A DNA stretch of 30,312 nucleotides from Pyrinomonadaceae bacterium. GTDB lineage: Bacteria > Acidobacteriota > Blastocatellia > Pyrinomonadales > Pyrinomonadaceae. The notes under the pieces are model-generated. The model was given only the letters and a program-made list of their open reading frames with translations, did not search any database and had not been told where the DNA came from. Location of the stretch: contig DATNDM010000210.1 in NCBI GenBank assembly GCA_035553235.1, positions 1 through 30,312 on the forward strand, given 5' to 3'. Within the stretch, counting starts at the first letter, position 1, and the number at the start of each line of letters is the position of its first letter. Made by a program: the position numbers and the translations under genes. Of this stretch, positions 5,501 through 28,939 are shown in pieces.

Positions 5501-8500
5501 CGCGCCTTGCCGGCTCCCAACTTGAAACGGTCGCAAATGGACGGCGCTTATGTCGCCCCGCGCACGAGCGCGGAGGAAGTGCTGGCGGCCGTGTGGTCGC
5601 AGGTGTTGTCAATCGAGCAAGTCGGCGCCTTCGACAATTTCTTCTCTCTGGGTGGTGATTCGATCCGCAGCCTGCAGATAGTGGCCTTGGCCCGCCAACG
5701 CGGCTTGCATTTCACTCTTCAACAATTGTTCCAGCATCAGACCGTGGCGACGCTGGCGGCGGCTGCAACACAGCCTGAGAGTCAGACGGAAGCTCGTCAG
5801 GAAACAGCCAGTGAGCCCTTTGGCCTGATCAGTGCGGCAGACCGTGCCAGGTTGCCGGAAGGCGTGGAGGATGCCTATCCGTTAACAATGCTGCAGGGTG
5901 GCATGTTGTATCACATGCAGCTAACCCCGCAGACACCGCTTTATCACAACGTAAACAGTATGCAGCTCCGTGCTGCGCTGGACGTGGAACTACTCCGCGA
6001 GGCCGCCGCCATGGTGGTTGCCCGTCACGCCGCTCTGCGCACCGGCTTCGACTTGAGCCATTACAGCGAGCCCTTACAGTTGGTCCACCTGCATGCCGTC
6101 ATGGACGTCGGCTTTGACGACATCAGTTCACTGGATACGCAGGAACAGGAGACCCTGATTGATAAGTTCGTCGAGGCCGAAAAGCGACGCAGCTTTGATC
6201 TGAGTCAACCGCCGTTGATGCGTTTCTTCATTCATCGCCGCAGTGATGAGACTTTCCAGTTCACGCTCACGGAATGTCACCCGATTCAGGATGGCTGGAG
6301 TTTGCATACAGTGCTGGCGGAGGCGTTCAGCTATTACTTCGCTCGGCTGAACGGCGAACCGGTTCCAGAGCTTGAACCAATCGCAATCAGCTACAGGGAG
6401 TTTGTGCGCATGGAGCGGGAGGCGCTGGCGAGCGAAGAGCACAAGCTGTTCTGGCGCCGTAAACTCGAAGGCAGTATGACGCTGACATTGCCGCGTTGGG
6501 AAAAATCGCAGCAAGTATCGGGGCGAGCAAATGTCGATGGGCCAACTGAGGTCAAATTCCGCAACGTAAAAATCCCTCCGAAATTGTCGGAAGACCTGAA
6601 GGCGTTAGCGCGCACCCTGGCGGTGCCAATCAAGAGCGTGATCCTCGCCGCGCACATGAAAGTCCTGAACATTCTCAGTGGCTCGACCGACATCCTTACC
6701 GGCGTGGTCAGCAATGGCCGATCTGAGGAGATTGGTGGTGAGCGAACGGTGGGCCTGTTCCTGAACACGCTGCCGTTTCGTCAGCAAGTCACGGGGGGAA
6801 CGTGGGAGGATTTGATACGGGGAACATTCGACACTGAATGGGAGTTGTTGCCATACCGGCGTTATCCGATGGCCGCGTTGCAACAGGGTCGCAGCGGGCA
6901 GTTGTATGAGACCGCTTTTAATTTCATACATTTTCACGTCGTCGATAGTGTGGTCCGCTCCGGTAACGTCGACGTGTTGGCGACTAAAGCATCGGAAGGT
7001 ACGAACTGGACGCTGCAAGCGCATTTTTCATTGGGCCTGGATGCACTGCATTTGGACCTACAGCTCGAGTACAACTCATTAGAGCTGGCTGATGAACAGA
7101 TGGAAGACATCGAGGGCTATTACCTGGGCGTACTGCAGGCAATGGCGCTGAACCCGCTGGCCAATCATCAATACCAGAGCTTCCTCTCAGCCGCGGAGCA
7201 ACAGAAACAGTTGACGGACGGCCGCGGAGTCATGGGTGAATATCCGGTGGACCGGAGCTTCGATGAGCTCTTCCGCGCTCAAGTGGAGCTGACGCCGGAC
7301 GCGGTCGCAGTAGTGAGTGACACCGGGGAGGTAAGTTACCGAGAGTTGAATGAGCGGGCGAATCAATTGGCCCACTGGCTGCGAGCAGCGGGAGTAGGAC
7401 CAGAAGCGGTAGTAGGGTTGCTGGCCGAACGCAGCGAGGGACTGCTGATCGGGATGCTGGGAGTGTTCAAGGTCGGGGCAGCGTATCTGCCGCTCGATCC
7501 GCGGCAGCCGGGCTGGCGACAACAGCAGGTGATAGAGCAGAGCGGGATGCGGCTGGTGCTGGCCAGTGGCCCGTATCAAGCTCAGCTGCGCGCAGCGCTG
7601 CAGGGCGTGCCCGCAGCAGCGCAGCCGGAAGTGCATGACCTGGAGGAACCGTGGCAACCGGGTTCGCAGTGGAGCAAAGCGGCGGTGGTGACTAAGGGCC
7701 AGCCGGACCAACTGGCCTATGTGATCTATACGTCGGGATCGACTGGTGTGCCCAAGGGCGCCATGATTACGCAAGCGGGAATGATCAATCACCTGTGTGC
7801 GAAGGTGGCGGAGTTGGGGTTGGGAAGTGCCGACCGCGTGGCGCAGACAGCGACGCAGAGCTTCGACATTTCAGTCTGGCAGTTTTTGGCCGCGTTGCTG
7901 GCCGGGGGACAAGTACGGATCGTGAGCGACGAAGTTGGCCTCGATCCGCGCGCGTTGCTGCGGTTGGTGTCCGAGAGCGGCGTGACAATCCTGGAGACGG
8001 TGCCGTCGATGCTGGGAGCGCTGCTCGAAGAGCTGGAATCCGGGAGTGACCAGGGAGTAATTGGAGCGGCACGGCTCGGGCAATTGCGCTGGCTGATTGT
8101 GACGGGCGAGGCCTTGCCGCCGGAGTTATGCCGGCGCTGGGCGGCTATTGGAGCGAGCGAGACGCGGTTGCTCAATGCGTATGGACCAACGGAATGCGCC
8201 GACGATGTAACGCATTTCGAAGTGCGCGGTGAAGTGGCGGCGGGGACGATGCGGATCCCGATCGGGCGGCCGTTGGGGAACACGCGTTTGTACGTCGTGA
8301 ATAAAGCTTTGACGCTGGTGCCGCGCGGAGTCGTCGGAGAGTTGTATGTGGGCGGCACGGGAGTCGGGCGCGGCTACTTGCAGGAGCCGAAGCAGACGGC
8401 GCTGAGCTTTGTGCCGGATCCGTTTAGTGGAGAGAGCGGCGCACGGTTGTACCGGACGGGAGACCTGGTCCGGCAGCGTGCTGACGGAGAGTTGGAGTAC

Positions 8501-9199
8501 GTCGGGCGGATAGACCAGCAGGTGAAGGTGCGAGGCTACCGCATTGAGTTAGGAGAGATCGAAGCAGTGCTGAGTGGGCACGTGGCAGTGCAGGAGGCGG
8601 TGGTAGTAGCGCGTGCCGATGCGGGCGGCGAGCAGCGGCTGGTGGGTTACGTAGTGCCGCAGGCAGCCGGCGAGGAGAATGGTCCGGTAACGGTGAGTGA
8701 CTTGCGGGCCTATCTGCGCGAGCGGTTGCCGGAGTATATGGTGCCGCAGGCGTTGGTGCTGCTCGCGCAACTTCCGTTAACGCCCAACGGCAAGATTGAT
8801 CGCAAGGCTTTACCCGCTCCCGAAGGACCAGAGACACAGGAAACTCTGACGTACGTAGCCCCGCGAACCGAGTTGGAGCAGCGGATTGCGGCTATCTGGC
8901 AATCGGTGTTGGGGGTCGAGAAGGTCGGAATGCATGATAACTTCTTCGACCTGGGAGGACATTCCATCCTTTTGATTGAAGCCAGCAGTAAACTCAGGGT
9001 CGCGCTGGAAAGGGAATTATCGGTGGTTGATATGTTTCGCCATCCGACGGTAAGTGCGATGGCTGAGTTCCTGAGCGCAGCACAACCGCAAGATCTGAAC
9101 TTTGCCGAGAATGTGGAACGAGCGAGTGTGCGTCGAGTTTCTGCAAACCGATTGCGTGAAAGAAAGCAGCAGCGTCAAAACGCAAACGCCGCAAAATAG
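2501..9199 (+). CDS. Two-module NRPS: C(LCL)-A(Ser)-PCP-C*(non-canonical)-A(diamino acid, Dap/Dab)-PCP
   Basis: ATG at 2501 follows AGGGAG (2491-2496) and overlaps the upstream gene by 23 nt, so it is preferred over the track start 2456. C1 HHIVSDG. A code DVWHISLVDK (Ser type). PCP GGDSI. C2 starts EDAYPL and has ECHPIQDG. A code DIWEITADDK (diamino-acid type). PCP GGHSI. Confidence 0.93.
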
Positions 9200-9464: not shown

Positions 9465-11921
9465 ATGGAAACCTTCATCCAGGATCTCAAACACGGCGCC
9501 CGTATGTTGATAAAAACTCCGGGCTTTACTGCGGTGGCGGTGTTGACACTGGCGCTGGGTATCGGCGCTAACACGGCTATCTTCAGCGTGGTGAACGCTG
9601 TTTTGCTTCGGCCTTTACCTTTCACCGAGCCGCAGCGATTGATAATCATCGGCGAAGCCAACGCCAGTCAAAAGGGCGCCGAAGGAGAGATCGGCATTGC
9701 GCCAGCCAACTATGTGGACTATGCCAAAGAGAACAAAACATTCGAGCGCATGGGCCTATTCTCGATGACGGTGCGCACGGGCTTCAATCTCGGAGGCGCC
9801 GAGGATCCGGAACGCCTGACGGCCGCAAATATCTCGTCGCAACTCTTTCCCACGCTGGGCGTGAATCCGATTTACGGTCGACAGTTTTTCCCGGACGATG
9901 AGAAGCAGGGAAACAATCGCTCCGTCATCCTGAGTTACGACCTCTGGCAACGCCGCTTCGGCGCAGACCCGGGCATCATCAACAAACCGATCACGCTTAA
10001 TGGCGCCAGCTATCAGGTGGTCGGTGTTATGCCGCAGGGATTTCAGTTTCCCACGAAAGATTTACTGCCCGAGCTTCAGACTTTGGCGAAACCTGTTGAG
10101 TTGTGGGTCCCACTCTCGCTCAACGACGCCGCCTGGACCGCGCGCGGGTCACGTTTCCTGCATGCCATCGGACGTCTTAAACCAGGCGTCACGATTGAAC
10201 AAGCAAGGGCTGACTTGAACACTATCGCAGCTCGTCTCGCGCAGCAGTATGAACAGGACCAGGGCTGGACCGCGAAAGTTGTTTCCCTGCAGGCCCAGAT
10301 CGTCGGTTCGATCAGGCTGGCGCTGCTCGTTCTCTTCGGAGCCGTTGGCTTTGTATTGCTGATTGCGTGCTCGAACGTGGCAAACCTTCTGCTCGCACGA
10401 GCCGCCACGCGACAGAAGGAGATCGCCGTCCGCCTTGCGCTCGGTGCTAATCGATTACGGCTTGTGCGCCAGTTGTTGACGGAAGGCTTTCTACTCGTCT
10501 TGATCGGCGGGCCGCTCGGAATGTTGCTGGCGGTGGCCGGCGTCAATGTTCTCGTTTCAATCAGTCCGCAGAGTATTCCGTTGTCTTCGCAACTCGGACT
10601 CGATGCACGAGTCGTCGCGTTCACACTGGTAGTTTCTTTTCTCACGGTGATTATTTTCGGACTAGTGCCCGCGCTGCAGTCGTCGAAGGTGGACCTCAGC
10701 AACGCGATGAAGGAAGGCGGCTCGCGCGGGACCACGAGCAGCGGTCTGCGTGTGCGTAATATCCTCGTCGTCTCTGAACTTGTATTGGCAGCCGTGTTGC
10801 TGGTGGGAGCAGGGTTGATGGTGAAGAGTTTCATGCGGCTCCAGAATGTCGATCCCGGCTTTGACCCGAATAACGTACTGACTTTTCAGTACACCTTACC
10901 GGCCGCAAAATACCCGGATGATCCTCAGATCATTGCCTTCAATGGCCAGCTTATCGAACGTCTCAAAGCGTTGCCGGGTGTCGACTCAGTAAGCGGTGCT
11001 TCGGCGCTGCCGCTCGGTAAACAGAGCAACTACACTTCCTTCACCATTGACGGGCAGCCGCCCCTGCCACCGGGAGAATTCCTGCTGTCCGAACACATCG
11101 GAGTCTTTCCTGACTACTTCAAAACGATGCACGTACAACTGCGAAAGGGGCGTGACTTCACCGCGCATGACACGCAGCAGAGTGCTCCCGTCGTGATCAT
11201 CAATGAAGCCATGGCTAACCAGTTCTGGCCCAACGATAATCCCATCGGAAAGTCGATCAAGATTGACTACGATCAGGGTGTCTCGCGTGAAATCATCGGC
11301 ATCGTCAACAACATCAAGAACTTCAGTCTGGACACGCCGGCGAAGGCCGAGATGTATGTACCTCAATTCCAATTTCCTTTTTACTCGACGTTCCTGGTCG
11401 TGCATGGCAAGGGCGACCCGAAGGACATGGTGATGCCGGTCACCAGGACCGTCGCGGGATTGGACAAGGACCAACCGATCTACAACATCAAGCCGATGAC
11501 GGAAGTGCTGAATGCATCTGTGGCCCGGCAGCGTTTCACTATGTTGTTGATGAGTTGCTTTGCAGCGCTCGCGGCGATACTCGCGGCGATCGGGTTGTAT
11601 GGTGTGATGTCATATTCGGTGAGCCTGCGCTCGCAGGAAATGGGTATTCGCATGGCGCTCGGTTCGCAACGTAAGGACATCCTCAAACTGATTATCGGCC
11701 ACGGGTTGAAGTTGGCTATCATTGGCGTTGTCATTGGTCTAATCATCGCTTTGGGTCTGACGCGTCTCCTCCAAAGTCTTTTATTCGGAATCAGCGCAAA
11801 CGATCCGGTCACCTTTATCGCCATCGCCTTACTGTTGGCCGTCGTGGCGGTGTTGGCAAGCATAATTCCCGCCCGCCGGGCCATGAGAGTCGATCCGATG
11901 GTGGCTCTCAGATACGAATAG
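9465..11921 (+). CDS. ABC transporter permease, duplicated MacB/FtsX type (ADOP, acidobacterial duplicated orphan permease-like)
   Basis: N-terminus [47 protein letters not shown], internal [30 protein letters not shown]-terminus [17 protein letters not shown]. 818 aa, two periplasmic/FtsX halves, no ATPase motifs. Confidence 0.92.
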
Positions 11922-12144: not shown

Positions 12145-14817
12145 ATGTACAATCAGGCTTTCTTCAGAGCGAGTTGGGCCAACGCTGATAACGCCCCTGG
12201 CCACACCGCCACAATTTCCGGTTCAGCAGTTTCTAAACAAGAGCGCGCAGCGCTGCCGTCGCACCTGGTACGTCTGGATGCGGACTGGGCCGTGTGGAGA
12301 TGTGTGGGATTGCGCGGCGCCGGTTTTCCGGCGAACTCAGTGTTGTCGCTGACTGCACCGGAATGTGCGTTAGCGGCTGACAACCTGCTGGCGGGCGAAA
12401 AAGATGTGCAGCTCGAGCGCGAAGCCGCCCTCGAAGTATTTCGTGAATCGCTGGACGACCTCCGCAACGAGGGTCGTTGGGATGACAAGAAGCGCCGCAA
12501 CAGCTTGCTCGATGACGTGCGGCTCCTCAAGTCGGACAAGTTGCCGAAGGCGAAAGAGTCGACGCCGCGGCAACAAGCTGTGATTGAGAGGTTGCGTGCC
12601 GCGCTGGCAAGAGTGGAAGAACTCAAGACTGAATTTCATGACGCCTTCAAAACAGCTGCAGCCCAAAGCTCCGAAACGTTGCGTGAAGTGGCGAATGAAA
12701 AGCTCTTCCGCGAAGCCATCACATGGCAGAACCGAGCGGCGTTGCACGGAGGTGTAGAAAGGTTAGACGCGTCACCGAGTACTGCAGGTGAAGGCAAGCG
12801 CCGCAAGCATGAATCCATCGTTGCCAGCTACCTGCAACGATACTGCGTCAAGAACGATACGATTGGTTTCTTCGGCCCGGTTGGTTGGGCCAGATTCAAT
12901 GAAGACAATCCGGGTATACACGTAACCACATCATCGCACATGGTAGCCGCCCGTCATGTTTATTTTGAAGGGTGGGCCATGGATGCTCTGACCAATACGC
13001 TCAATAAGAATGCGTCGCTGCGCCGGTGGTGTGCGCCACGTCGTTTGCCGTTCATTTTTCTTGACGGCGATACCCTACACGTACCGATGCGCCGGCCATT
13101 GCGTTTAGCTGCGAAGCATGCGGCGGTGCTGCGACAGTGCAATGGAGATCTCACTGCGCACCAGATCGCGCAATCGTTGTTGTCTGGACGTGTCGAAGGC
13201 CTGAGCAACGAGCGAGAGGTCTACGCGATCCTGGACGGACTCTTAACGCAGAGACTGATCGTTTGGCAGTGGGAGTTGCCCCTGGAGGCTTTTTCTGAAC
13301 GGCGCTTGCGGCAGTTGCTCGAGCGAATCGAAGACAAACCTTTGCGCGAAACCACGCTGTCGTCGCTGAAACAATTAGAACACGCTCGAGACGACGTGGC
13401 CGCGGCCGCCGGAGATCCCGCGAAACTCGATGCTGCCTTGAATGTGCTGGAAGAAACGTTCACGACTCTGACTGGCGCCGCCCCGACACAGGCTGCCGGG
13501 CGAACTTACGGAGCGAGAACGATTGTTTACGAAGATTGCCGCCGCAGTACGCAGGTTGAGGTGGGCAGCGAAATCATTAACGAATTGCGCCAGCCATTGA
13601 GCCTGCTGTTGCAGAGTGCGCGCTGGTTCACGTTTGAAGCGGCAAAGGTCATGCGTGACGAGTTGCGCGGAATCTACCGTGAGCTGGTGAAGAAAAACGG
13701 CGGTAGTCGCGGCGTCGATGGTCTGTCTTTTTGGTTACAGGCGCAGGTGCAGATGTTTGGTCATAGCGTAAACGGGCAGAATAATTTTGAGGCGCCTATC
13801 CTGAACGAACTGCAAGGCATCTTTCAGCAACGTTGGCAAGATGTGCTCGGAATGTACGAGGGTCAGCAGCAGGTGAAGTGGCGCAGTAGTGAGCTACGTG
13901 AACGAGCGGAGAAGGCATTCGCAGCGCCGCACGCCGGCTGGAGCTTGGGCAGGTATCACAGTCCGGACATTATGATTGCCACCAGGGACGCTGAGAGTCT
14001 CAAACGCGGTGATTACGAGTTTGTAATGGGCGAGCTTCACCTCGCAAACAATACACTCGGAGCCTCACTCTTCGTCGAGCAGCATGAATCCCCGCAAGAG
14101 CTCATCGGCTTCTTCGAAAGTGATATGCCGGGCGTACGAGCTGTACCGATGACGCCGAAAGAGTGGCTGACGGCGCGCATCAATTATCGATTCATCTCGT
14201 CGCGGGATTATCGCATCGAGCTTACCGTCAACTCGTTTCATGGCCAGCGAGAACGCGCTCTTCCGATTGCCGCACTCGTCGTCGAAGAGAGCGAGGATGG
14301 TCTCGTGGCGCGCACCCGCGATGGCAGTTTGTGTTTCGACATGATCGAGCTCTTCGGCGGGATGTTCTCAGGATTTGTTGTTAACCAGTTTAAGCTGGTG
14401 CGAGACTTACCACACACACCGCGTATCACCATCGATCGTCTTATCGTCTCGCGAGAAACCTGGCGTTTTCCGCCCGCTGACATAACCTTTGCCACGATCA
14501 AAGACGATGCAGATCGATACGTCGCGGCACGTCGCTGGGTCCAGCAAAACTCGCTGCCCCGTTTCGTCTTCGTCAAAGCGCCGGTTGAGCCCAAACCGGT
14601 CTACGTGGACTTTGACAGTCCCATCTTCGTCCACCTGCTGGCGAAGATAGTCCGGCGCCAGGCTCAGGAAGGGAAAGAAGCAGCGACGATTGCATTCTCG
14701 GAGATGATGCCGACATTCGAACAACTTTGGTTGCCGGATGCTGAAGACAACCGTTACACGAGCGAATTCAGGATAGTTGCTCTGGATCTCGCGGAGACCA
14801 CAGAGGCGGGCAAATAG
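12145..14817 (+). CDS. Stand-alone lantibiotic dehydratase N-terminal-domain protein (PEARL / short LanB-like, aminoacyl-tRNA-dependent ligase family)
   Basis: Motifs WRCVGLRGAGFP, YLQRYCVKNDTIGFFGP (12829-12879), YHSPD, GELH and C-terminal LPRFVFVK..EPKPVYVDFDSP..SEMMP..RYTSEFR. The protein ends there, without an elimination domain. Start uncertain (GTG 12109 or ATG 12145). Confidence 0.88.
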   Translation: MYNQAFFRASWANADNAPGHTATISGSAVSKQERAALPSHLVRLDADWAVWRCVGLRGAGFPANSVLSLTAPECALAADNLLAGEKDVQLEREAALEVFRESLDDLRNEGRWDDKKRRNSLLDDVRLLKSDKLPKAKESTPRQQAVIERLRAALARVEELKTEFHDAFKTAAAQSSETLREVANEKLFREAITWQNRAALHGGVERLDASPSTAGEGKRRKHESIVASYLQRYCVKNDTIGFFGPVGWARFNEDNPGIHVTTSSHMVAARHVYFEGWAMDALTNTLNKNASLRRWCAPRRLPFIFLDGDTLHVPMRRPLRLAAKHAAVLRQCNGDLTAHQIAQSLLSGRVEGLSNEREVYAILDGLLTQRLIVWQWELPLEAFSERRLRQLLERIEDKPLRETTLSSLKQLEHARDDVAAAAGDPAKLDAALNVLEETFTTLTGAAPTQAAGRTYGARTIVYEDCRRSTQVEVGSEIINELRQPLSLLLQSARWFTFEAAKVMRDELRGIYRELVKKNGGSRGVDGLSFWLQAQVQMFGHSVNGQNNFEAPILNELQGIFQQRWQDVLGMYEGQQQVKWRSSELRERAEKAFAAPHAGWSLGRYHSPDIMIATRDAESLKRGDYEFVMGELHLANNTLGASLFVEQHESPQELIGFFESDMPGVRAVPMTPKEWLTARINYRFISSRDYRIELTVNSFHGQRERALPIAALVVEESEDGLVARTRDGSLCFDMIELFGGMFSGFVVNQFKLVRDLPHTPRITIDRLIVSRETWRFPPADITFATIKDDADRYVAARRWVQQNSLPRFVFVKAPVEPKPVYVDFDSPIFVHLLAKIVRRQAQEGKEAATIAFSEMMPTFEQLWLPDAEDNRYTSEFRIVALDLAETTEAGK

Positions 14818-14859: not shown

Positions 14860-15912
14860 ATGATCGACGCGACGTTTGCCGAAACTGTTTTGAAGAAACC
14901 GGGCGCCATCAAGCGAAAGGCGGTAGGTCTCTCGCCCACGAGCCTCGTCAAAACAAGCCGGCTACCTGGAAACAACTTGCTGCCGCTGGTCGTCGAGCCG
15001 GCTTTCAGAGACGTCAACCTCGTCGAGTGGGCGACCAACAATCGCGAGTTCGTAAAAAAGAATATTCACGAATCTGGTGGGATACTCTTCCGCAATTTCA
15101 ACGTCTCGAATGCAGATGATTTTGAAGATTTCGCCAAAGCTGCGTCGGGCAGCGAACTCCTCGAGTACCGCGAACGTTCTTCGCCACGCAGTCAGATCAG
15201 CGGCAACGTTTATACGTCAACAGACTATCCCGCGGACCACAACATCTTTCTGCATAACGAAAACTCGTACCAGCACACCTGGCCTCTCAGAATCTTTTTC
15301 TACTGCGCGCAGGCAGCCCTAACCGGAGGTGAGACCCCGATCGCCGACACACGCCGGATTAGAGTTCGCATCCCACAAGAAATCCAACAGCGCTTCATAG
15401 AGAAAAAATGGATGTACGTGCGCAACTTCAGCGAAAGGTTCGGACTTCCGTGGCAGACGGTCTTTCAAACGACGGACAAGAGCGTGGTGGAGGAATACTG
15501 TCGCCGGAACGGCATCATGGTCGAGTGGCGCGAAGATGATCGTCTGACGACTCGCGCGATCCGTCCGGTCATTACGAGGCATCCGGAAACGGGTGAAGAT
15601 GTTTGGTTCAATCACGCGACGTTTTTTCATGTCACTACGCTCGAACCCACTGTTCGCGACGTATTTCTAACCGCCTTCAAGGAAGAAGATCTGCCAACGA
15701 ATACGTATTACGGAGACGGGACGCCAATCGAATCAGCGGTGCTTGATGAGCTACGGGATATTTATCGTGCGGAGACGGTCAGCTTCCCATGGCAAGAGGG
15801 AGACGTCCTGATGTTGGACAACATGCTGGCCGCTCACGGCCGCTCGTCATACTCAGGTCCACGCAAGATATTCGTCGCCATGACTGACCCAATCAGCCGC
15901 GACGACGCATAG
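14860..15912 (+). CDS. TauD/TfdA-family Fe(II)/2-oxoglutarate dioxygenase, SyrP-like (probable PCP-bound Asp/Asn beta-hydroxylase)
   Basis: VYTSTDYP..IFLHNENSY (HxE iron motif), GGETPIAD, WFNHA, DNMLAAHGR (distal His/Arg). SD-like AAGGAGG upstream. Confidence 0.88.
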   Translation: MIDATFAETVLKKPGAIKRKAVGLSPTSLVKTSRLPGNNLLPLVVEPAFRDVNLVEWATNNREFVKKNIHESGGILFRNFNVSNADDFEDFAKAASGSELLEYRERSSPRSQISGNVYTSTDYPADHNIFLHNENSYQHTWPLRIFFYCAQAALTGGETPIADTRRIRVRIPQEIQQRFIEKKWMYVRNFSERFGLPWQTVFQTTDKSVVEEYCRRNGIMVEWREDDRLTTRAIRPVITRHPETGEDVWFNHATFFHVTTLEPTVRDVFLTAFKEEDLPTNTYYGDGTPIESAVLDELRDIYRAETVSFPWQEGDVLMLDNMLAAHGRSSYSGPRKIFVAMTDPISRDDA

Positions 15913-16148: not shown

Positions 16149-19100
16149 ATGAGTGATTTTGAAATTGCTGATCATCCTGAAGCGATCGCCATCATCGGCA
16201 TGGCTGGTCGGTTCCCGCAGGCGAAAAACGTCTCCCAGTTCTGGAAGAAGCTGTGCGATGGAGTCGAGCTCGTTACTTTCTTCACAGACGAAGAACTGCG
16301 CGCGGGCGGCGCAACTGAGGAGATGTTGAAAGATCCGGCGTTCGTCAAAGCAGGCGCAGTGATGCAGGACGTTGATCTATTTGACGCTGCCTTCTTCGGT
16401 TACAGCCCGCGCGAAGCGGAGATTCTCGATCCGCAGCATCGCAATTTTCTGGAATGCGCCTGGGAGGCGCTCGAGAATGCCGGCTACGATCCGGACAGAT
16501 CCACGGCCTTAACCGGCGTCTTCGCCGGCAGCAGTTTCAACGGCTATCTGTTGCGCAACATATGTTCCAACCCCGCCATCGTCGATGCGATGGGAACATT
16601 CCTGATCGGCATCAACAGCGATAAGGATTTTCTGGCGACGCGTGTCTCTTACGAGTTGAACCTCACTGGGCCAAGCATGACGATACAAACTGCGTGCTCG
16701 ACCTCTCTCGTGACGGTCCATGTTGCCTGCCAGAGTTTGCTCAACGGCGAGTGTGACATGGCGCTGGCGGGCGGCGTTTCGATCAGCCTTCAGGACAAGA
16801 TGGGTTACTACTATCGTCCGGGTGGCATATCGTCACCCGACGGTCATTGCCGTGCTTTCGATGCGAAAGGGCAAGGCATAGTCGGTGGCAATGGGTTGGG
16901 AGTAGTGGTCTTGAAGCGCTTGAGCGATGCCGTCGAGGCTGGCGATAACATTATCGCTGTCATCAAAGGCTCGACTGTAAACAACGATGGCTCGAGCAAA
17001 ATCGGATTCACGGCCCCGAGTATCGATGGTCAGTCGAAAGCGATCGCCGAGGCGTTGGCGGTGGCCGGGGTGGATGCTGAATCGATCACTTACATCGAAG
17101 CGCACGGAACAGCAACAGCGCTCGGCGATCCGGTTGAAGTTGCAGCTCTGACACAAACCTTTCGGGCGACGACACAGAAGAAAGGGTTCTGTGCTATTGG
17201 TTCGGTGAAGACTAATTTGGGTCATCTGGATGCCGCGGCCGGCGTCACCGGCGTCATCAAGACAGCGCTTTCACTGCAAAACAAAGTAATCCCGCCGAGC
17301 CTGCACTTTGAAGAGCCCAATCCACGTATCGACTTCGCCAGCAGTCCTTTCTATGTCAACGCCACGCTCAAGGCTTGGGAGGGTGGCCCAACTCCGCGTC
17401 GAGCAGGAGTGAGTTCGTTCGGCATCGGTGGCACAAACGTCCACGCCATCCTCGAGGAAGCTCCCGACATCGGGTTGTCCGGTGAAAGCCGATCGTCGCA
17501 ACTGCTGTTGCTTTCGGCAAAGACACCCACTGCGCTCGAAGCGATGACGGCGAACCTGGTCCAACATTTCAAACAAAGCCCAGATATCAATCTGGCCGAT
17601 GCCGCTTTCACGCTGCAGGTCGGGCGGAAGGTCTTTGGCCATCGCCGGGCAGTGGTTTGCCGTGACGTAGAGGATGCGATCAAGACGCTCGAAGTCGTGG
17701 ATCCGCGCAGGGTTTTGACCAGTTTTCAAGAAGAGGGAAGTCGCTCGATAGGTTTCATGTTTTCCGGGCAAGGTACGCAGTACCCGAACATGAGTCTGGG
17801 CCTGTATGAGCGCGAACCGGCATTTCGCAACTGGATAGACACTTGCTCAGAAATGCTGCGGCCACATCTCGGAATCGACTTGCGCACTGTGTTGTATTCG
17901 GACCAGGAAGAGGTCGCCGCGGCTGAAGCACTCAAGCAGACATCGCTGGCGCAACCTGCGTTGTTCGTCGTCGAGTATGCACTGGCGCGGTTGTTGATGG
18001 ATTGGGGGGTACAGCCTCAGGCGCTGATCGGCCATAGCATTGGTGAATACGTGGCTGCATGCCTCTCCAGAGTGTTTTCGCTCGCCGATGCTCTCACGCT
18101 GGTGGCGGAAAGAGGACGGTTGATGCAACAGATGCCCGCGGGCGCGATGCTCAGCATTCGGCTCGCCGAAGAGGATGTTGTTCCGTTCCTCAGTGCGGAG
18201 TTGAATCTCGCCGTTGTTAATGCTCCGGAGCAATGTGTCGTCGCCGGTCCCACCAGCGCGATTGATGCTTTACAGAACCGGTTGGCGGAACGGAAAGTTG
18301 ATTGCAGCCGCCTTCATACTTCGCATGCGTTTCATTCGGAGATGATGAAACCGGCGCTGGCGCCATTCATCGAAATGGTAAAGAAAGTGAAACGCAATCC
18401 ACCTCAAATCCCGTTCGTGTCAAACGTGAGCGGAACGTGGATTACCGAAGCTGAAGCGATTGATCCCGAATATTGGGCCAGGCACTTGCGACAAACGGTG
18501 CGCTTTGCGCAAGGCGCACGTGAGTTGTTGCAGGACCCAAAGCGGATCTTAGTGGAAATCGGACCGGGCCAAACGCTGACGACATTGACTAAACAACAAT
18601 TGAAAGGCCGGACCGATCAGCAGCTGGTAGTACCGACCTTACCGCCGCCAAATAACAACAAATCAGACGAAGAGGCCTTGTTGACCACTGTCGGTCGTCT
18701 TTGGTTGGGTGGTGTGCAGTTGGATTGGTCTGCGTTCTATGCAAACGAGCGTCGCCATCGCATACCGCTTCCTTCGTATCCCTTCGAACGGCAGCGGTAT
18801 TGGATCGAGCCAGGAAAAATCAGTTCAAACGGTGGGCGCCGCGTTGCGTCCGGCAAGTTATCGGATATTACACAGTGGTTCTATTCGCGCTTGTGGAAAC
18901 AAACGAACTTGCTCGAGTCTTCTGCGCCGGCTACGGCCGAAGAGCGGAACGATTGGCGGCTCGTGTTTGCCGCTGACAACGATTTCAGTCGCGCGCTGGT
19001 CCAGCGATTAAAGCAGGAGTGGCGCAACCTGGTTTGTGTGATGCCGGGGGACAACTTTGAGCGACTCGACGATCATACGTACAGAATCGATCCGCAAAAA

Positions 19101-20798
19101 CGTGCACACTACGAGGCGTTACTCAAAGCTTTGAAGGAGCAGAACAGCACTCCCACACAGATTATTCACCTTTGGAACGCGGCCTCGCCGGGTGTAACAG
19201 CAGAGTTGCTGCGGGATAATTTCGAGTCGACGCAGATACCCGGTCTCTACAGCCTCTTGTTTCTGGTCCAATCGCTTTCCAGGCTGAATCTCAACGATGC
19301 TCTGCGGCTCACCGTAATTTCAAGCGGGGTGGAAGAAATCACCGGAACGGAGTCTTTCTCTCCTGAAAAGACAACCATCAAAGCCGCCTGCAAAGTGATT
19401 CCGCAGGAGTATCCGCATATCACCTGCCGTAGCATCGATATCGATCTGCCTTCGCGCGACAGTATCGAGGGCAGGGAGCTACTGGACCAAGTGGTCGCGG
19501 AATGCATTGGGAAGTCACGTGATTTGGTAGTGGGTTATCGCGGCCGAAGACGTTGGGTCGAGACATTCGAGCCTTTGCAATTACATCAGGGCGCCGGTCG
19601 TTCGAGACTGCGCGAAGGCGGCGTCTATCTCATCACCGGAGGCTTCGGAGAACGAGGCTTAGTCGTCGCGACGCACCTCGCGAAGATTGCCCACGTGAAA
19701 CTGATTTTGACGGGTCGTTCACCTCTTCCGGAAAGAGCGGAATGGGACCAATGGCTTGCGTCGCACGATGCGCACGATGAAGTCAGTCGCAAGCTGCGAC
19801 GGCTGCGGGAAATGGAAGAACTCGGAGCAGAGATTCTCGTCGTTAGTGCGGATGTGGCCGATCGAGAACAGATGGAGCCGGTCATCCACCAAATCTATGA
19901 GCGTTTTGGACAGCTCAACGGAGTGATCCACGCAGCCGAGCAAAGGGATGGATTCATGCAGGCGATCCAGGAAACAGGGCTGGCACACTGTCGCAATCAG
20001 TTCCGCCCAAAGGTCCAGGGGCTGCTCGTTCTGGAAGAATTACTACGCGACAAGGAAATCGATTTTTGTCTTGTCATGTCGTCGCTGTCTACGGTGCTCG
20101 GCGGGCTGGGTTTCTTTGCTGCCGCGGCAGCGAGCACTTTTATGGACGCGTTCGCCAGCAAGGAAAATCGAAACGGATCGACACCCTGGTTCAGTATTGA
20201 CTGGGACGGTTGGTCGCTACGCGATGAGCTTGCAGGTGTCGAGTCGAATCCCGACGATACCGGCATCACCGCGGCTGAAGTCGTCGAGGTTCTGGACCGC
20301 GTGCTGTCGCACCGTTTGCCCACACCCGTCGTGATCTCGAGCAGTGATTTGCAAGCCCGGATTTCGCAGTGGGTGAAACTGGAGTTAATCCGCGACCAGG
20401 GACAGTCGGAAAAAGAGAACAAGTCCACTGGTTATCCGCGACCGAACTTGTCGAATGCCTACGTGGCTCCAACCAACGACATCGAGACGTCCATCGCTGA
20501 AATCTGGCAGGAACTGTTGGGAATCGAACAAGTGGGCATCCATGACAACTTATTCGATCTCGGCGGAGACTCGCTGCTGGTCATACAAATCGTTTCGCGC
20601 ATACGCGAGGTCTTACACATTGAAGTTCCGCTCCGCGCAATCTTTGAAACACCAACGATCGCCGAGTTGGCTGACAAGGTGGGCCAAACTGCGCTGGCGC
20701 TGCATGGTGACACTGAGGAGCTCGCCAACACGTTGGACCTCGTCGAACAGTTGTCGGATGAAGAGTTGATGGCCCTGCTTGCCGAACAAGAAGCATGA
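16149..20798 (+). CDS. Type I cis-AT PKS module KS-AT(malonyl)-KR(degenerate)-ACP
   Basis: KS IAIIGMAGRFP, QTACSTS, EAHGT, GHLDAAAG. AT GHSIG and HAFHS (malonyl type). No DH motif seen. KR region YLITGGFGERG..HAA..GFFAAAAAS lacks the catalytic Tyr/Asn. ACP DNLFDLGGDSL. Confidence 0.95.
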   Translation: MSDFEIADHPEAIAIIGMAGRFPQAKNVSQFWKKLCDGVELVTFFTDEELRAGGATEEMLKDPAFVKAGAVMQDVDLFDAAFFGYSPREAEILDPQHRNFLECAWEALENAGYDPDRSTALTGVFAGSSFNGYLLRNICSNPAIVDAMGTFLIGINSDKDFLATRVSYELNLTGPSMTIQTACSTSLVTVHVACQSLLNGECDMALAGGVSISLQDKMGYYYRPGGISSPDGHCRAFDAKGQGIVGGNGLGVVVLKRLSDAVEAGDNIIAVIKGSTVNNDGSSKIGFTAPSIDGQSKAIAEALAVAGVDAESITYIEAHGTATALGDPVEVAALTQTFRATTQKKGFCAIGSVKTNLGHLDAAAGVTGVIKTALSLQNKVIPPSLHFEEPNPRIDFASSPFYVNATLKAWEGGPTPRRAGVSSFGIGGTNVHAILEEAPDIGLSGESRSSQLLLLSAKTPTALEAMTANLVQHFKQSPDINLADAAFTLQVGRKVFGHRRAVVCRDVEDAIKTLEVVDPRRVLTSFQEEGSRSIGFMFSGQGTQYPNMSLGLYEREPAFRNWIDTCSEMLRPHLGIDLRTVLYSDQEEVAAAEALKQTSLAQPALFVVEYALARLLMDWGVQPQALIGHSIGEYVAACLSRVFSLADALTLVAERGRLMQQMPAGAMLSIRLAEEDVVPFLSAELNLAVVNAPEQCVVAGPTSAIDALQNRLAERKVDCSRLHTSHAFHSEMMKPALAPFIEMVKKVKRNPPQIPFVSNVSGTWITEAEAIDPEYWARHLRQTVRFAQGARELLQDPKRILVEIGPGQTLTTLTKQQLKGRTDQQLVVPTLPPPNNNKSDEEALLTTVGRLWLGGVQLDWSAFYANERRHRIPLPSYPFERQRYWIEPGKISSNGGRRVASGKLSDITQWFYSRLWKQTNLLESSAPATAEERNDWRLVFAADNDFSRALVQRLKQEWRNLVCVMPGDNFERLDDHTYRIDPQKRAHYEALLKALKEQNSTPTQIIHLWNAASPGVTAELLRDNFESTQIPGLYSLLFLVQSLSRLNLNDALRLTVISSGVEEITGTESFSPEKTTIKAACKVIPQEYPHITCRSIDIDLPSRDSIEGRELLDQVVAECIGKSRDLVVGYRGRRRWVETFEPLQLHQGAGRSRLREGGVYLITGGFGERGLVVATHLAKIAHVKLILTGRSPLPERAEWDQWLASHDAHDEVSRKLRRLREMEELGAEILVVSADVADREQMEPVIHQIYERFGQLNGVIHAAEQRDGFMQAIQETGLAHCRNQFRPKVQGLLVLEELLRDKEIDFCLVMSSLSTVLGGLGFFAAAAASTFMDAFASKENRNGSTPWFSIDWDGWSLRDELAGVESNPDDTGITAAEVVEVLDRVLSHRLPTPVVISSSDLQARISQWVKLELIRDQGQSEKENKSTGYPRPNLSNAYVAPTNDIETSIAEIWQELLGIEQVGIHDNLFDLGGDSLLVIQIVSRIREVLHIEVPLRAIFETPTIAELADKVGQTALALHGDTEELANTLDLVEQLSDEELMALLAEQEA

Positions 20799-20828: not shown

Positions 20829-20987
20829 AACTTCGCGCAACCTGCACGAACGCCTCTTCTCTGTGCAACCTCTGTGTTCTCTGTGTCTTTGTGGTGGATC
20901 AATTCCGAGCAAAACACACCACAGAAACACAGAGAACACAGAGGTTGCACAGAGAAATCCATTGTGTAGGAACTCTTGTGCAAAGTT
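20829..20987. repeat. Family-1 hairpin repeat, copy 4
   Basis: Arms 20857-20895 and 20918-20956 (2 mismatches), loop GGATCAATTCCGAGCAAAACAC, degenerate outer IR AACTTCGCGCAA / TTGTGCAAAGTT. Confidence 0.9.
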
Positions 20988-21031
20988 GCTCGGCAGGGGT
21001 CTTATTCCCGTATTCATTGGAAAGAGATTTC

Positions 21032-24000: not shown

Positions 24001-25195
24001 GATCCCTGCCGCGATCATGATCATCGATGCCTTGCCGTTGACGCTGAATGGAAAGATCGACTACCGCGAGCTGCCGGCCTGGGACGCTGAGCAAGCGCCG
24101 GTGCGCACGTCATATGTGGCGCCGCGCAATCTTATCGAACTCCACGTCGCGGAGATTTGGCAAGAGGTGTTGAATGTGCCGCGCGTCGGAGCTACCGATA
24201 ACTTTTTTGAGCTGGGTGGCCATTCGATGTTGGGCATGCGCGTCTCCGCCCGAGTGTTTGAAAAATTTGGATACGAGTTGCCGCTTTCCGTGTTTTTCGA
24301 GGGCGGCACGGTCGAACACGTCGCCTCACTGATTCGGAACCAGACAAACATGTCGTCGTCGCATCTGGTCATGCTGCAAAGCGGCACTTCAGGACCACCG
24401 ATTTTCCTGGTCCACCCGATCGGCGGCGGCATCGTTTGTTACGTATACCTGGCACGACATCTTGGTGCGGACCAACGTGTTTACGCGTTCCAGGCGCTCG
24501 AGAAAGACGATCCGCACACGCAGGTTGAAGAGATGGCTGCCAGTTACATCGAGGCCATGCGCGAGGCTGAACCGAACGGGCCTTATCTTCTTGGCGGTTA
24601 TTCTTTCGGATCGTACGTAGCGTTTGAGATGGCATGTCAGTTAAAGCGAGCGGGACAGAACGTCGAGCTGCTTGCGATCTTCGACAACGGAAAACCGGGC
24701 TTGATCGATCAGGCGCCCGAAGATGATCCGGCCACCGGAGAGGATCCGGTTGCGCTGGCTCGAATTCTCGAAAACTTCGCGAACCTGAAAGAGCCTCTGC
24801 CGATCGATGAAGATTACCTGCGGCAACTCGGACCGGATGAACAACTGCTGTACATCATGGAGCAGGCGAAGAAGGCTCGGATCATGCCGCAGGAACTCAC
24901 GCTGCATCAGGTGAAGCGTTCGCTACACAATTTCAAGAGCAGAGTAGAGGCAGCGCGCACTTATGTGCCGCCGCTGTATCCGGGCAAGGTCACCCTCTTC
25001 AAGGGTGTCGAAATACAACCCTGGGACCAGGATTACTTAGCGGCCGATCCCACCTGGGGTTGGGGCGGAATTTCTACGGAGCCTGTCGAATTGCACAGTG
25101 TCGCAGGCTCTCACGAGACTGTGATCGCGGAGCCGGCTGTTATTGATCTAGCGGCAAAGCTCAAACAATGTATCGCTCGAATCGAGAGGAAGTAA
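21032..25195 (+). CDS. Terminal NRPS module C-A(Asn)-PCP-TE
   Basis: ATG 21032 preferred because the track extension from 20891 runs through the repeat. N-terminal docking helix LSPVRRALLDKLL. C HHIASDV. A code DLTKVGEVGK (Asn type). PCP GGHSM. TE LVHP, GYSFG (GxSxG), SH near the C-terminus. Confidence 0.94.
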   Translation: MSTNHNVESLSRRIEELSPVRRALLDKLLKAKGVGTTPESTRIQRRVKADFTPLSFAQQRMWVLYQLDPTNPSYVMPDAVRLQGPLDISALQQGFEEIVRRHDILRTTYHITERGPSQVIAPEQAVSEFLDFAFVDYSEMPADEAEDAARRLTLKEAVTVFDLAQGKQLRIRVIRLNEEEHIILFALHHIASDVWSLNIFAREIATLYDAFSQGKPSPLPDLEIQYADFAVWQREFLQGETYEKQLSYWKEHLKDAPPLLELPTDRPRPAIQSFNGSSRSFGLNKALSQQLLTLTRQEDATLFMVLLTAFYILLHRYTGEKDIVVGTPMAGRNQSETEALIGFFINTLGLRTKLSGELSFRELLKSVREVVLGASEHQDFPFEQLVEELQPERSLSYSPIFQAMFALQNVRGAGLELPGLKLVPVLRDALVAKFDLTLFMAESGGDIDGTFEYNTDLFDRSTIERMTGHLERLLEGIVADPDQRISELPFLSPAEEEQQISAWNQTAREFPANACVHHLFEEQVKRTPQAIALRCGSVELSYTELDQRANELARYLMSHGVSGEALVAVCLPRSAEMVISLLAVLKAGGAYLPLDLSSPPRRLNAILTEAQPRVLLTVSEWRERLPVGTETIVLELDGAWEDHEWSMSGATVHDTPAIDPDNLAYVIYTSGSTGQPKGAMITHRGVVNYLTFCQNAYPLTEGSGAVVHSPIGFDLTVTSLYGPLVSGGCVYLLEENEGVEGLAKALQQPGRPYSLIKLTPAHLEMLSRLISPDSPVQTRSFVIGGEALYGNDVKTWQERAPEVRLINEYGPTETVVGCCVFEVEAQSDVTPLVPIGRPIANTRLYILNDDMTVLPAGGKGELYIGGEGVGRGYLRNPVVTAERFVPDPFSEDGGGRLYRTGDLARYRKDGSIEYLGRKDSQVKVRGYRIELGEIEAVLKTFELVQDAIVLQKGESREEQRLVAYVVPKANTDLTIAAVRDYLKSELPPYMIPAAIMIIDALPLTLNGKIDYRELPAWDAEQAPVRTSYVAPRNLIELHVAEIWQEVLNVPRVGATDNFFELGGHSMLGMRVSARVFEKFGYELPLSVFFEGGTVEHVASLIRNQTNMSSSHLVMLQSGTSGPPIFLVHPIGGGIVCYVYLARHLGADQRVYAFQALEKDDPHTQVEEMAASYIEAMREAEPNGPYLLGGYSFGSYVAFEMACQLKRAGQNVELLAIFDNGKPGLIDQAPEDDPATGEDPVALARILENFANLKEPLPIDEDYLRQLGPDEQLLYIMEQAKKARIMPQELTLHQVKRSLHNFKSRVEAARTYVPPLYPGKVTLFKGVEIQPWDQDYLAADPTWGWGGISTEPVELHSVAGSHETVIAEPAVIDLAAKLKQCIARIERK

Positions 25196-28592: not shown

Positions 28593-28626
28593 GCGAAAGT
28601 CGATCAGCTACGATAAGTAAAACCCT

Positions 28627-28874: not shown

Positions 28875-28939
28875 AGCGTCGCTCCCGTCATTTGTGTCAT
28901 TCCCCTTTAGAGAAACAACAGCTCGGAGGGCGGAAACCA

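What the first reader, a model, noticed from the sequence alone, without database searches (positions are those of the whole stretch)
12145..14817. PEARL/short-LanB-like enzyme inside an NRPS-PKS cluster with no RiPP machinery
Seen: an approximately 890-aa protein with the YLQRYCVKNDTIGFFGP, SPD and GELH motifs, ending at RYTSEFR without an elimination domain. No LanC, elimination protein or plausible precursor/scaffold peptide ORF is visible, and the flanking gaps are repeats or under 100 nt. Established: this fold uses aminoacyl-tRNA, either to glutamylate Ser/Thr (LanB) or to append residues to an ATP-activated C-terminal carboxylate (PEARL). Inference: it adds a residue not encoded by any A domain, at a reversed-chain carboxylate or at the TE-released Asn C-terminus. 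Alternatively it glutamylates the PCP-bound Ser so the odd C domain can eliminate it to dehydroalanine.
Basis: partly seen in the sequence, partly recalled or inferred. Interest (0 to 1): 0.85.

Follow-up and report, generated by a model that had tools for sequence, protein, structure and literature searches.

The report
tRNA-dependent amide ligase in NRPS cluster
A stand-alone enzyme mis-annotated as a lantibiotic dehydratase sits in an acidobacterial peptide-polyketide gene cluster and most likely adds one extra amino acid from a charged tRNA, as the published enzyme SnaE does, though the cluster lacks the feature that explained SnaE's role.

Summary
Window 12145-14817 (+) encodes an 890-aa protein with PF04738 only, a confident LanB glutamylation-domain fold, no elimination domain, no LanC and no scaffold-peptide gene; the flanking gaps hold a dispersed palindromic repeat.

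It is not a dehydratase type. It has the PEARL/SnaE block QRYCVKNDTIGFF, invariant D608 and E630-x-H632, and the C-terminal YTSEFR (E-x-R), matching published alignments of TglB, BhaB, AmmB and SnaE. Four of five genomes carrying such enzymes have no PF14028 match.

The kind is already published: SnaE (Yu and van der Donk 2024), with about 2000 NRPS/PKS clusters noted. This one differs. The 'odd' C domain is a CmodAA-type dehydrating domain, which disfavours the glutamylation alternative.

[quoted passage not shown] The site and the amino acid added are unresolved.

Earlier scan notes on this window (odd C domain, Dap-type A domain, inactive KR) agree with my checks.

The parts
12145..14817 (+). 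SnaE-like PEARL gene (890 aa; an alternative GTG start lies at 12109)
   Evidence: PF04738 E 1.6e-44 with no PF14028 match listed; TbtB fold match E 2.6e-27; the 890-aa form is on record
12835..12879 (+). QRYCVKNDTIGFFGP: PEARL-type version of the block proposed to bind the aminoacyl-tRNA 5'-phosphate
   Evidence: Published alignment: PEARLs and SnaE read QRxxxK(N/C)(D/E)T, LanBs read RxxxR/K(S/T)(S/T)P(F/Y); coordinates
13006..13269 (+). Embedded PqqD-like winged-helix (RRE-like) domain, residues 288-375
   Evidence: Family profile matches PqqD at E 0.0036; the model matches PqqD proteins with TM by hit up to 0.79
13957..14040 (+). HSPD ... GELH: D608 and E630-x-H632, candidate ATP/Mg site
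   Evidence: Invariant in 94 of 94 family members; the 22-residue spacing equals TglB D542-E564, and an E-x-H is described as PEARL-typical. The mapping is inferred from spacing, not from a residue-level alignment.
14452..14571 (+). R770 and F809: adenine-pocket residues shared with TbtB (R743, F783)
   Evidence: HMM alignment to 6ec7, whose chain numbering is offset by 3; 93 of 94 conserved; roles
14755..14772 (+). YTSEFR: C-terminal E874-x-R876, the PEARL phosphorylation signature
   Evidence: SnaE reads YTSELR, TglB reads CCEIR, LanBs have E/D-x-V/L; E874 in 91 and R876 in 92 of 94
1..2523 (+). NRPS, 5'-truncated: tail of a C-like domain, then A(Asn-like)-T
   Evidence: Pfam; specificity residues DLTKIGEVGK read from the motifs; orthologs show the full 1099-1109-aa protein with a His-less C-like start
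2456..9199 (+). NRPS: C-A(Ser-like)-T-CmodAA-A(Dap/Dab-like)-T
   Evidence: Pfam; residues DVWHISLVDK and DIWEITADDK; ECHPIQDG at 6272-6295 and KSVILAAH at 6632-6655
9465..11921 (+). ADOP-family duplicated MacB-type permease
   Evidence: TIGR03434, 1014.5 bits; found beside the enzyme in 23 of 79 loci
14860..15912 (+). TauD-family dioxygenase, 42 nt downstream of the enzyme gene
   Evidence: PF02668 E 3.6e-51; syntenic in orthologs
16149..20798 (+). PKS module KS-AT-KR-ACP; the KR lacks the catalytic Tyr (GFFAAAAAS at 20109-20135)
   Evidence: Pfam; motif reading
20891..25195 (+). NRPS C-A(Asn-like)-T-TE; the real start is probably ATG 21032, since 20842-20956 is a repeat copy
   Evidence: Pfam; residues DLTKVGEVGK; repeat; alternative start
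25199..26869 (+). Cyclic-peptide-type ABC exporter
   Evidence: TIGR01194 E 5.4e-164
27168..27392 (+). MbtH-like protein
   Evidence: PF03621 E 3.5e-22
28892..29977 (+). SbnA-family PLP enzyme (first step of L-2,3-diaminopropionate synthesis)
   Evidence: TIGR03945, 431 bits against a cut-off of 350

Best explanation
The gene encodes a SnaE-like member of the PEARL branch of the LanB glutamylation-domain superfamily. [quoted passage not shown] ATP phosphorylates a free carboxylate of the nonribosomal product to an acyl phosphate. The alpha-amine of a specific aminoacyl-tRNA attacks it. The tRNA ester is then hydrolysed, leaving the product one residue longer than its A domains encode. In this cluster the chain reads (Asn)-(Ser, probably dehydrated by a CmodAA domain)-(Dap/Dab)-(malonyl unit with an inactive KR)-(Asn)-TE. 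No intermediate carries a free carboxylate until the thioesterase releases the chain, so the most likely acceptor is the C-terminal Asn carboxylate. Shown here: the fold, the absence of an elimination partner, the PEARL-type residues, and conserved NRPS synteny. Inferred: ATP and tRNA dependence, the acceptor site, and the identity of the added residue (unknown). I give about 0.75 that the enzyme has PEARL/SnaE-type chemistry, and about 0.4 that the site is the released C-terminus.
For: Fold and domain content: PF04738 only; TbtB, MadB, MibB, NisB and GodF are the structural matches. PEARL-type residues: QRYCVKNDTIGFF and YTSEFR line up with SnaE (QRYFTKNDTIGFF, YTSELR) and with TglB, BhaB and AmmB in the published alignment, against RxxxR(S/T)TPFG and E-x-V/L in NisB, MibB, SpaB, EpiB and TbtB. 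D608, E630 and H632 are invariant in 94 of 94 relatives and spaced as TglB D542/E564. The adenine-pocket residues R770 and F809 are conserved. No elimination partner: none in the window, no tblastn hit in 79 loci, and no PF14028 in 4 of 5 whole genomes that carry the enzyme. NRPS linkage: 60 of 79 loci have an A domain within 10 kb, and orthologs at 60% identity or more keep NRPS-NRPS-ADOP-enzyme-(SbnB)-TauD. Tandem arrays of 2-4 copies occur, as in multi-PEARL pathways. A Streptomyces plasmid operon has two copies with only a stand-alone A domain, an ACP and a PLP enzyme, and no C domain is listed, which leaves them as the only candidate bond formers there. No scaffold peptide: the gaps contain only repeat-derived ORFs.
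Against: No biochemical data exist for this clade. I could not obtain full sequences of SnaE or any characterised PEARL, so the comparison rests on two published alignment blocks and on spacing, not on a full alignment or tree. The Asp608 = TglB Asp542 mapping is inferred. My internal control, the C561 split LanB, aligns poorly (20% identity) and also has Arg at the E-x-R position, so that position is not a clean discriminator. The relatives were fetched through the KNDTIGFF pattern, which makes conservation of block 1 circular. If the TE cyclises the product, no carboxylate would remain. A PqqD-like RRE domain is retained, which hints at a peptide or protein partner that I did not find. The close orthologs have a different downstream half (a FAAL-initiated multi-module NRPS rather than PKS plus Asn-TE), yet keep the enzyme, so the acceptor may be something common to both variants rather than the C-terminal Asn.
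Confidence: 0.6

Rival explanations
1. ATP-independent aminoacyl transfer: a nucleophile of the nonribosomal peptide, such as the free second amine of Dap or a hydroxyl, attacks the ester of an aminoacyl-tRNA. This is the LanB glutamylation chemistry, giving a side-chain amide or ester branch.
For: It is the ancestral chemistry of the fold. SbnA/SbnB genes lie beside the enzyme in many separate branches of the family tree and in three phyla, in places as SbnA-enzyme-SbnB. G137 has two copies 1.5 kb upstream of SbnA.
Against: The residues tied to ATP-dependent phosphorylation in PEARLs are invariant in this family. The Dap link is partial: no match to P0001 was found in four of six other SbnA-bearing acidobacterial genomes, and most family loci lack SbnA/B.
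Confidence: 0.12
2. A true glutamylase: it glutamylates the carrier-bound Ser (or another Ser/Thr or beta-hydroxy residue) with Glu-tRNA, and the CmodAA domain or another protein eliminates glutamate to give a dehydro residue.
For: A Ser module is followed by a dehydrating-type C domain with a non-canonical ECHPIQDG motif. This clade shares that domain (L008, L015, L019).
Against: The LanB-type RxxxR(S/T)TPFG block is replaced by the PEARL-type block, and an E-x-R is present. CmodAA domains were shown experimentally to dehydrate in two pathways, and I know of no report of a LanB-type helper. CmodAA-like domains occur in only 6 of 87 sources. PF14028 is absent from most genomes that hold the enzyme.
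Confidence: 0.08
3. A canonical PEARL acting on a ribosomal scaffold peptide encoded elsewhere in the genome, so that its place in the NRPS cluster is coincidental or regulatory.
For: A PqqD-like RRE fold is retained. The MAG is 70% complete and the contig is cut at both ends. About a fifth of family members have no NRPS gene within 10 kb.
Against: Synteny with NRPS genes is conserved from 45% to 88% identity and across phyla. There is no conserved small ORF next to the gene in any ortholog; the upstream gap is only 101 nt in L007. Other LanB-fold enzymes also contain leader-binding regions, so an RRE-like fold alone proves little (my own knowledge).
Confidence: 0.07
4. Amination of a vinylogous carboxylate: the enzyme phosphorylates the enol of the beta-keto amide left by the inactive KR, and an aminoacyl-tRNA amine adds and eliminates, as AmmB3 and BhaB5 do on hydroxyquinones.
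For: The KR lacks its catalytic Tyr, so a 1,3-dicarbonyl should persist. PEARLs of this type are described.
Against: The close orthologs keep the enzyme but have no PKS module. No oxidase of the kind used after Gly addition is visible.
Confidence: 0.05

Closest known systems
SnaE of Stackebrandtia nassauensis (threopeptin pathway; Yu and van der Donk, ACS Cent Sci 2024, PMC11212132)
   Same: Stand-alone enzyme of about 850-890 aa with PF04738 only, encoded in an NRPS-PKS cluster with no precursor peptide. The diagnostic blocks are nearly identical (FREA(V/I)xWQN, QRYxxKNDTIGFF, WLPxxxxxxYTSE(L/F)R(F/I)VA). Actinomycete relatives of the same family are 38-41% identical to this protein.
   Different: SnaE extends the carboxylate freed by a ureido-forming C domain (EHHxxHDG) in an A-T-C-A-T module. 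No such domain or loading didomain exists here or in the orthologous clusters. Only 4 of 79 family loci show the ureido motif within 10 kb. Host phylum and cluster content differ (CmodAA, Dap genes, TauD, ADOP permease). I could not compute a full-length identity to SnaE itself.
Canonical PEARLs: TglB, AmmB1-4, BhaB1/4/5/7
   Same: Same fold; the same QRxxxK(N/C)(D/E)T and E-x-R blocks; Asp and E-x-H at the same spacing; no elimination partner; a tendency to occur as several paralogs.
   Different: They act on ribosomal scaffold peptides of about 5-10 kDa, and none is visible here. Sequence similarity is too low for a pairwise hit. No PEARL structure is available for comparison.
Split LanB glutamylation proteins (TbtB, PDB 6EC7/6EC8) and full LanBs (NisB, MibB, MadB)
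   Same: Best structural matches (TM 0.5-0.7); shared adenine-pocket Arg and Phe and the C-terminal Glu; an embedded leader-binding-type winged helix.
   Different: The LanB-type tRNA-phosphate block is replaced; there is no elimination domain or partner, no LanC and no precursor. The genome's own split LanB (C561) is only about 20% identical and lacks an alignable E-x-H.

Membership tests
PEARL / LanB-like aminoacyl-tRNA ligases | LanB glutamylation-domain fold (PF04738) | tested here: met
   PF04738 E 1.6e-44; Foldseek match to TbtB E 2.6e-27, TM 0.62-0.70
PEARL / LanB-like aminoacyl-tRNA ligases | No PF14028 elimination domain in the protein or its neighbourhood | tested here: met
   The only PF14028 above cut-off in the genome lies on another contig, next to its own LanB-type partner.
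PEARL / LanB-like aminoacyl-tRNA ligases | PEARL-type tRNA 5'-phosphate block QRxxxK(N/C)(D/E)(T/S) | tested here: met
   QRYCVKNDT compared with the published alignment
PEARL / LanB-like aminoacyl-tRNA ligases | C-terminal E-x-R needed for ATP-dependent phosphorylation (TglB E801/R803) | tested here: met
   YTSEFR compared with SnaE YTSELR and TglB CCEIR; E874 in 91 and R876 in 92 of 94 relatives
PEARL / LanB-like aminoacyl-tRNA ligases | Asp equivalent to TglB D542 (Tyr in split LanBs) and the E-x-H | tested here: inconclusive
   D608 and E630-x-H632 are invariant and spaced 22 residues apart as in TglB, but no residue-level alignment with TglB was possible
PEARL / LanB-like aminoacyl-tRNA ligases | Ribosomal scaffold or carrier peptide as substrate | tested here: not met
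   No candidate ORF in the window or conserved in orthologs. This places it in the SnaE-like, non-RiPP subgroup.
PEARL / LanB-like aminoacyl-tRNA ligases | ATP- and aminoacyl-tRNA-dependent amide formation | not testable with these tools
   Needs an enzyme assay
SnaE-type system (PEARL after ureido chain reversal) | Enzyme encoded within an NRPS/PKS cluster | tested here: met
SnaE-type system (PEARL after ureido chain reversal) | Ureido-forming C domain with EHHxxHDG in an A-T-C-A-T arrangement | tested here: not met
   The window's C motifs are [15 protein letters not shown] and HHIASDV. There is none in the complete upstream regions of orthologs L096 and L097, whose first domain reads LALCSDT.
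Class I lanthipeptide / split LanB dehydratase | RxxxR/K(S/T)(S/T)P(F/Y)G block, an elimination domain or partner, a precursor peptide | tested here: not met
CmodAA dehydrating condensation domain (the 'odd' C domain, 5843-7165) | [K/R]SVLLAAH helix before motif C5, conserved DG, position after a Ser/Thr module; Cys for the first His is known in FclJ-C2 and Zmn17-C2 | tested here: met
   KSVILAAH and ECHPIQDG after the Ser-type module. Phylogenetic placement among C-domain subtypes was not tested.

The most novel reading that the evidence does not exclude
The nonribosomal peptide may serve as a scaffold, in a nonribosomal version of the thiaglutamate/ammosamide logic. The PEARL-like enzyme would append a tRNA-borne amino acid to the NRPS-PKS product. 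Cluster-encoded tailoring enzymes (two TauD dioxygenases and one or two methyltransferases) would modify that residue. The conserved 788-aa M28 peptidase at the head of the orthologous clusters would then release an amino-acid-derived end product or activate a prodrug. A related variant is that the enzyme's retained RRE-like domain docks on the synthetase, so that tRNA-dependent and thiotemplate chemistry act on one tethered intermediate.
Probability: 0.07. Interest if true: 0.85.

Novelty: new variant of a known kind. Interest (0 to 1): 0.45.

Why it matters
Only one NRPS-associated PEARL-like enzyme (SnaE) has been characterised, and its role was explained by a ureido chain reversal that exposes a carboxylate. 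This locus, and most of the 79 related loci sampled here, have no ureido-type C domain within reach. So the published rationale probably does not cover most of this large family: more than 2000 proteins were found in the first search, and at least 575 coding stretches in species genomes. The family is spread over Acidobacteriota, Chloroflexota, Actinomycetota and other phyla. Working out the acceptor here would show how tRNA-dependent peptide extension is joined to thiotemplate assembly in general. It would also improve structure prediction for such clusters, whose products carry one or more residues that no A domain predicts, and would correct a widespread 'lantibiotic dehydratase' mis-annotation. 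The cluster is also a compact target from a poorly explored phylum.

Tried and rejected
- A single-sequence search of PDB sequences found nothing. The family profile reached only TbtB and PqqD.
- NCBIfam has no model for the protein.
- I could not get full sequences of SnaE, TglB, AmmB or BhaB. They are not in the PDB or among the reviewed-UniProt matches, the mechanistic paper PMC6927032 is not held, and the single genome-contig scan returned only the best 80 loci, without Stackebrandtia. So there is no SSN or tree with characterised enzymes.
- The record behind L008 could not be searched. I reached its upstream part through the ortholog of the first NRPS instead.
- The C561 split LanB gave an ambiguous answer at the Asp position (L in one alignment, S next to a D in another) and has Arg at the E-x-R position. 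I therefore do not lean on it.
- A general enzyme-CmodAA partnership is rejected: 6 of 87 sources.
- An obligatory enzyme-Dap partnership is rejected: 1 of 6 other SbnA genomes shows adjacency, and no match to P0001 was found in 4.
- The PLP enzyme beside the Streptomyces copies is a Ser/Thr-dehydratase type, not SbnA.
- The window holds no tRNA gene.
Full report
**Observation.** The window is contig C210 of a fragmented MAG (726 contigs, 70% complete). The names of the closest homologs (Pyrinomonadaceae, Acidobacteria) and an ADOP-family permease point to Acidobacteriota. All large genes lie on the + strand. The ORF at 12109/12145-14817 encodes 902/890 aa; the 890-aa form from ATG 12145 is the one on record. 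Pfam finds only PF04738 (E 1.6e-44) and lists no PF14028 match. An AlphaFold2 model built on 31 relatives is confident (pLDDT 84.9, pTM 0.83). Its best structural matches are TbtB (E 2.6e-27, TM 0.62-0.70), then MadB, MibB, NisB and GodF. The flanking gaps contain copies of a roughly 100-nt palindromic repeat, five in the window, and every small ORF there is a reading of that repeat. There is no tRNA gene and no LanC in the genome.

**Is an elimination partner hidden elsewhere?** The genome has one PF14028 ORF above cut-off, on the 4.4-kb contig C561. It directly follows its own 901-aa PF04738 gene. That gene is only about 20% identical to the window's protein and carries the LanB-type block RMSLRTSPFG. 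This is a separate split-LanB system, not a partner. Four of five other genomes that carry relatives of the window's enzyme have no PF14028 match anywhere, including one that is 100% complete. In the fifth, the PF14028 genes lie on contigs other than the enzyme array.

**What type of LanB-fold enzyme is it?**
- The literature separates PEARLs from glutamylation domains by a few residues. Arg743, Phe783 and Glu851 (TbtB numbering) line the adenine pocket in both groups. [quoted passage not shown] A Glu564 with a conserved His is also described (PMC11117183).
- Figure S12 of the SnaE paper, held as text, shows that PEARLs and SnaE read QRxxxK(N/C)(D/E)T where LanBs read RxxxR/K(S/T)(S/T)P(F/Y). 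It also shows E-(I/L)-R where LanBs have E/D-x-V/L.
- The window's protein reads FREAITWQN...YLQRYCVKNDTIGFF and WLPDAEDNRYTSEFRIVA. SnaE reads FREAVAWQN...YAQRYFTKNDTIGFF and WLPGPDG--EMYTSELRFVA.
- In 94 relatives taken from fetched loci, D608, E630 and H632 are invariant, R770 and F809 are kept in 93, E874 in 91 and R876 in 92. The D608-E630 distance of 22 residues equals TglB D542-E564.
- The HMM alignment to TbtB places R770 and F809 on TbtB R743 and F783 (the PDB chain is offset by 3).
- Caveats: the loci were fetched through the KNDTIGFF pattern, so conservation of block 1 is circular. The Asp mapping rests on spacing. The C561 control aligns poorly and also has Arg at the E-x-R position.
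- On balance the enzyme is of the PEARL/SnaE type.

**Family and context.**
- The first search returned over 2000 homologs of about 860-900 aa. The species-genome collection held at least 575 coding stretches, from Acidobacteriota, Chloroflexota, Cyanobacteria, Gemmatimonadota, Proteobacteria and Actinomycetota.
- Of 79 loci, 60 have an NRPS A domain within 10 kb, none gave an elimination-domain hit, and only 4 carry the ureido motif EHHxxHDG.
- Orthologs at 60% identity or more share NRPS-NRPS-ADOP permease-enzyme-SbnB-TauD and form a supported clade with the window (SH-aLRT 99).
- Tandem arrays of two to four copies recur.
- Streptomyces plasmids hold homologs at about 40% identity with the same blocks. 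One operon reads enzyme - stand-alone A domain - PLP enzyme - ACP - enzyme, with no C domain listed in the stretch.
- About a fifth of members have no NRPS gene nearby. One follows an aspartate/ornithine carbamoyltransferase-like gene.

**The assembly line.**
- I read the A-domain specificity residues from the core motifs, taking the positions from my memory of the PheA numbering. They give Asn-like, Ser-like, Dap/Dab-like and Asn-like, and the cluster ends in a TE.
- An SbnA gene (431 bits against a cut-off of 350) fits Dap. SbnB is not in the window, but two contigs begin inside OCD-family genes.
- The C domain after the Ser module reads ECHPIQDG. It carries KSVILAAH, the [K/R]SVLLAAH mark of dehydrating CmodAA domains, for which Cys in place of the first His is documented (PMC11342130).
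- The KR lacks its catalytic Tyr.
- Walking upstream in two orthologous clusters shows NusG-like regulator - M28 peptidase - a second TauD - methyltransferase(s) - NRPS. That NRPS starts with a C-like domain that has LALCSDT in place of HHxxxDG, followed by A(Asn)-T. There is no loading didomain and no EHHxxHDG.
- The chain therefore starts with a free-amine Asn and offers no reversed-chain carboxylate.
- The close orthologs replace the window's PKS plus Asn-TE with a FAAL-ACP-C-initiated multi-module NRPS. The window's cluster is thus a variant within its clade.

**Interpretation.** The enzyme is most likely a SnaE-like ligase dependent on ATP and aminoacyl-tRNA. In this cluster no intermediate has a free carboxylate before release, so the TE-released C-terminal Asn is the simplest acceptor. 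This is inference, and it is weakened by the fact that orthologs with a different downstream half keep the enzyme. The glutamylation-plus-CmodAA alternative is disfavoured by the residue pattern, by the experimentally confirmed dehydrating function of CmodAA domains, for which I know of no report of a LanB-type helper, and by their rarity next to the enzyme (6 of 87 sources). A link to Dap is suggestive but not obligatory. True SbnA occurs in 7 of 301 sampled acidobacterial genomes. That sample includes one unpublished genome, G024, which was not among the seven and on which no other claim rests. Of the six other SbnA genomes, one has two enzyme copies 1.5 kb upstream of SbnA, one has four copies on another contig, and in four no match to P0001 was found. 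The retained PqqD-like winged helix at residues 288-375 is unexplained.

**Comparison with what is known, and novelty.** The kind is published. SnaE adds Thr to the carboxylate exposed by a ureido-forming C domain. [quoted passage not shown] I found no paper on acidobacterial or non-ureido examples, and a 2026 review lists no further NRPS-linked case and no PEARL crystal structure. I therefore rate this a new variant of a known kind: the same enzyme type and the same NRPS-PKS setting, but without the chain-reversal element that explains the known case. Interest is moderate.

**Earlier scan notes.** Notes on this window had already flagged the odd C domain, the Dap-type A domain, the inactive KR and the atypical first C-like domain. 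My checks agree with them.

Noticed in passing
window 5843-7165 (motifs at 6272-6295 and 6632-6655): The C domain after the Ser-type module reads ECHPIQDG and carries KSVILAAH, the CmodAA (dehydrating) signature. The same E-C-H-(A/P)-I-Q-D-G motif is conserved in L008, L015 and L019. In L015 and L019 this domain is the last domain of its NRPS, with no A domain after it.
   Followed up: partly
window 20109-20135: The KR of the PKS module reads GFFAAAAAS where the catalytic YAAAN segment is expected, so it is probably redox-inactive. The NADPH loop GGFGERG still fits GxGxxG.
   Followed up: partly
window 9230-9345, 11929-12042, 15956-16072, 20842-20956, 28624-28734: Five copies of a roughly 100-nt palindromic repeat (arms ...CTCTGTGTTCTCTGTG... 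/ ...CACAGAGAACACAGAG...) occupy the intergenic gaps of the cluster. One copy overlaps the first listed start of the last NRPS gene, whose real start is probably ATG 21032.
   Followed up: partly
window 26963-27038 and 30095-30269: A second repeat family (...GGATCGGGTCAGTACAGGGAGCGGTAGCGACCTGGTCA...) occurs three times. Two copies lie at the contig end, which probably explains the assembly break before SbnB.
   Followed up: no
window 27168-27392: A 74-aa MbtH-like gene (PF03621 E 3.5e-22) lies in what looks like a 580-nt gap between the larger ORFs.
   Followed up: yes
L001 (G000 contig C561) 1-3389, minus strand: The same genome has a classic split LanB: a 901-aa glutamylation protein with RMSLRTSPFG followed by a PF14028 ORF cut by the contig end. 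Its C-terminus reads IEMRL, that is Arg where published split LanBs have Leu. No precursor gene was looked for.
   Followed up: partly
L097 9767-11116 and L096 10016-11368; window 1-250: The first NRPS of the orthologous clusters opens with a C-like domain without catalytic histidines (LALCSDT), next to a second TauD gene. This may be an interface-type domain that recruits the hydroxylase.
   Followed up: partly
L096 4990-9892 and L097 3045-9638: Orthologous clusters begin with a NusG-like gene, a 788-aa M28/M20 peptidase, a second TauD and one or two SAM methyltransferases. In this MAG that part would lie on another contig and was not searched for.
   Followed up: no
L098 (Streptomyces fungicidicus plasmid p1) 9055-18044: A minimal operon: MbtH | enzyme (774 aa) - stand-alone A domain - Ser/Thr-dehydratase-type PLP enzyme - ACP - enzyme (760 aa) | methyltransferase, with a PPTase nearby and no C domain listed in the stretch. 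It would be a compact system for testing what these enzymes do.
   Followed up: partly
L037 9126-12607: A family member with no NRPS gene within 10 kb directly follows an aspartate/ornithine carbamoyltransferase-like gene that is split into two ORFs. An MFS gene and a B12-radical SAM gene lie nearby.
   Followed up: no
G176 contig C9 118588-128769; L038; G137 contig C24 29157-34320: Tandem arrays of four, three and two paralogs of the enzyme, reminiscent of the multi-PEARL amm and bha clusters.
   Followed up: no
L093 (G000 C490 7-462) and L094 (G000 C393 9-689): Two contigs of this MAG begin inside OCD/SbnB-family genes. One of them may be the missing SbnB partner of the window's SbnA.
   Followed up: no
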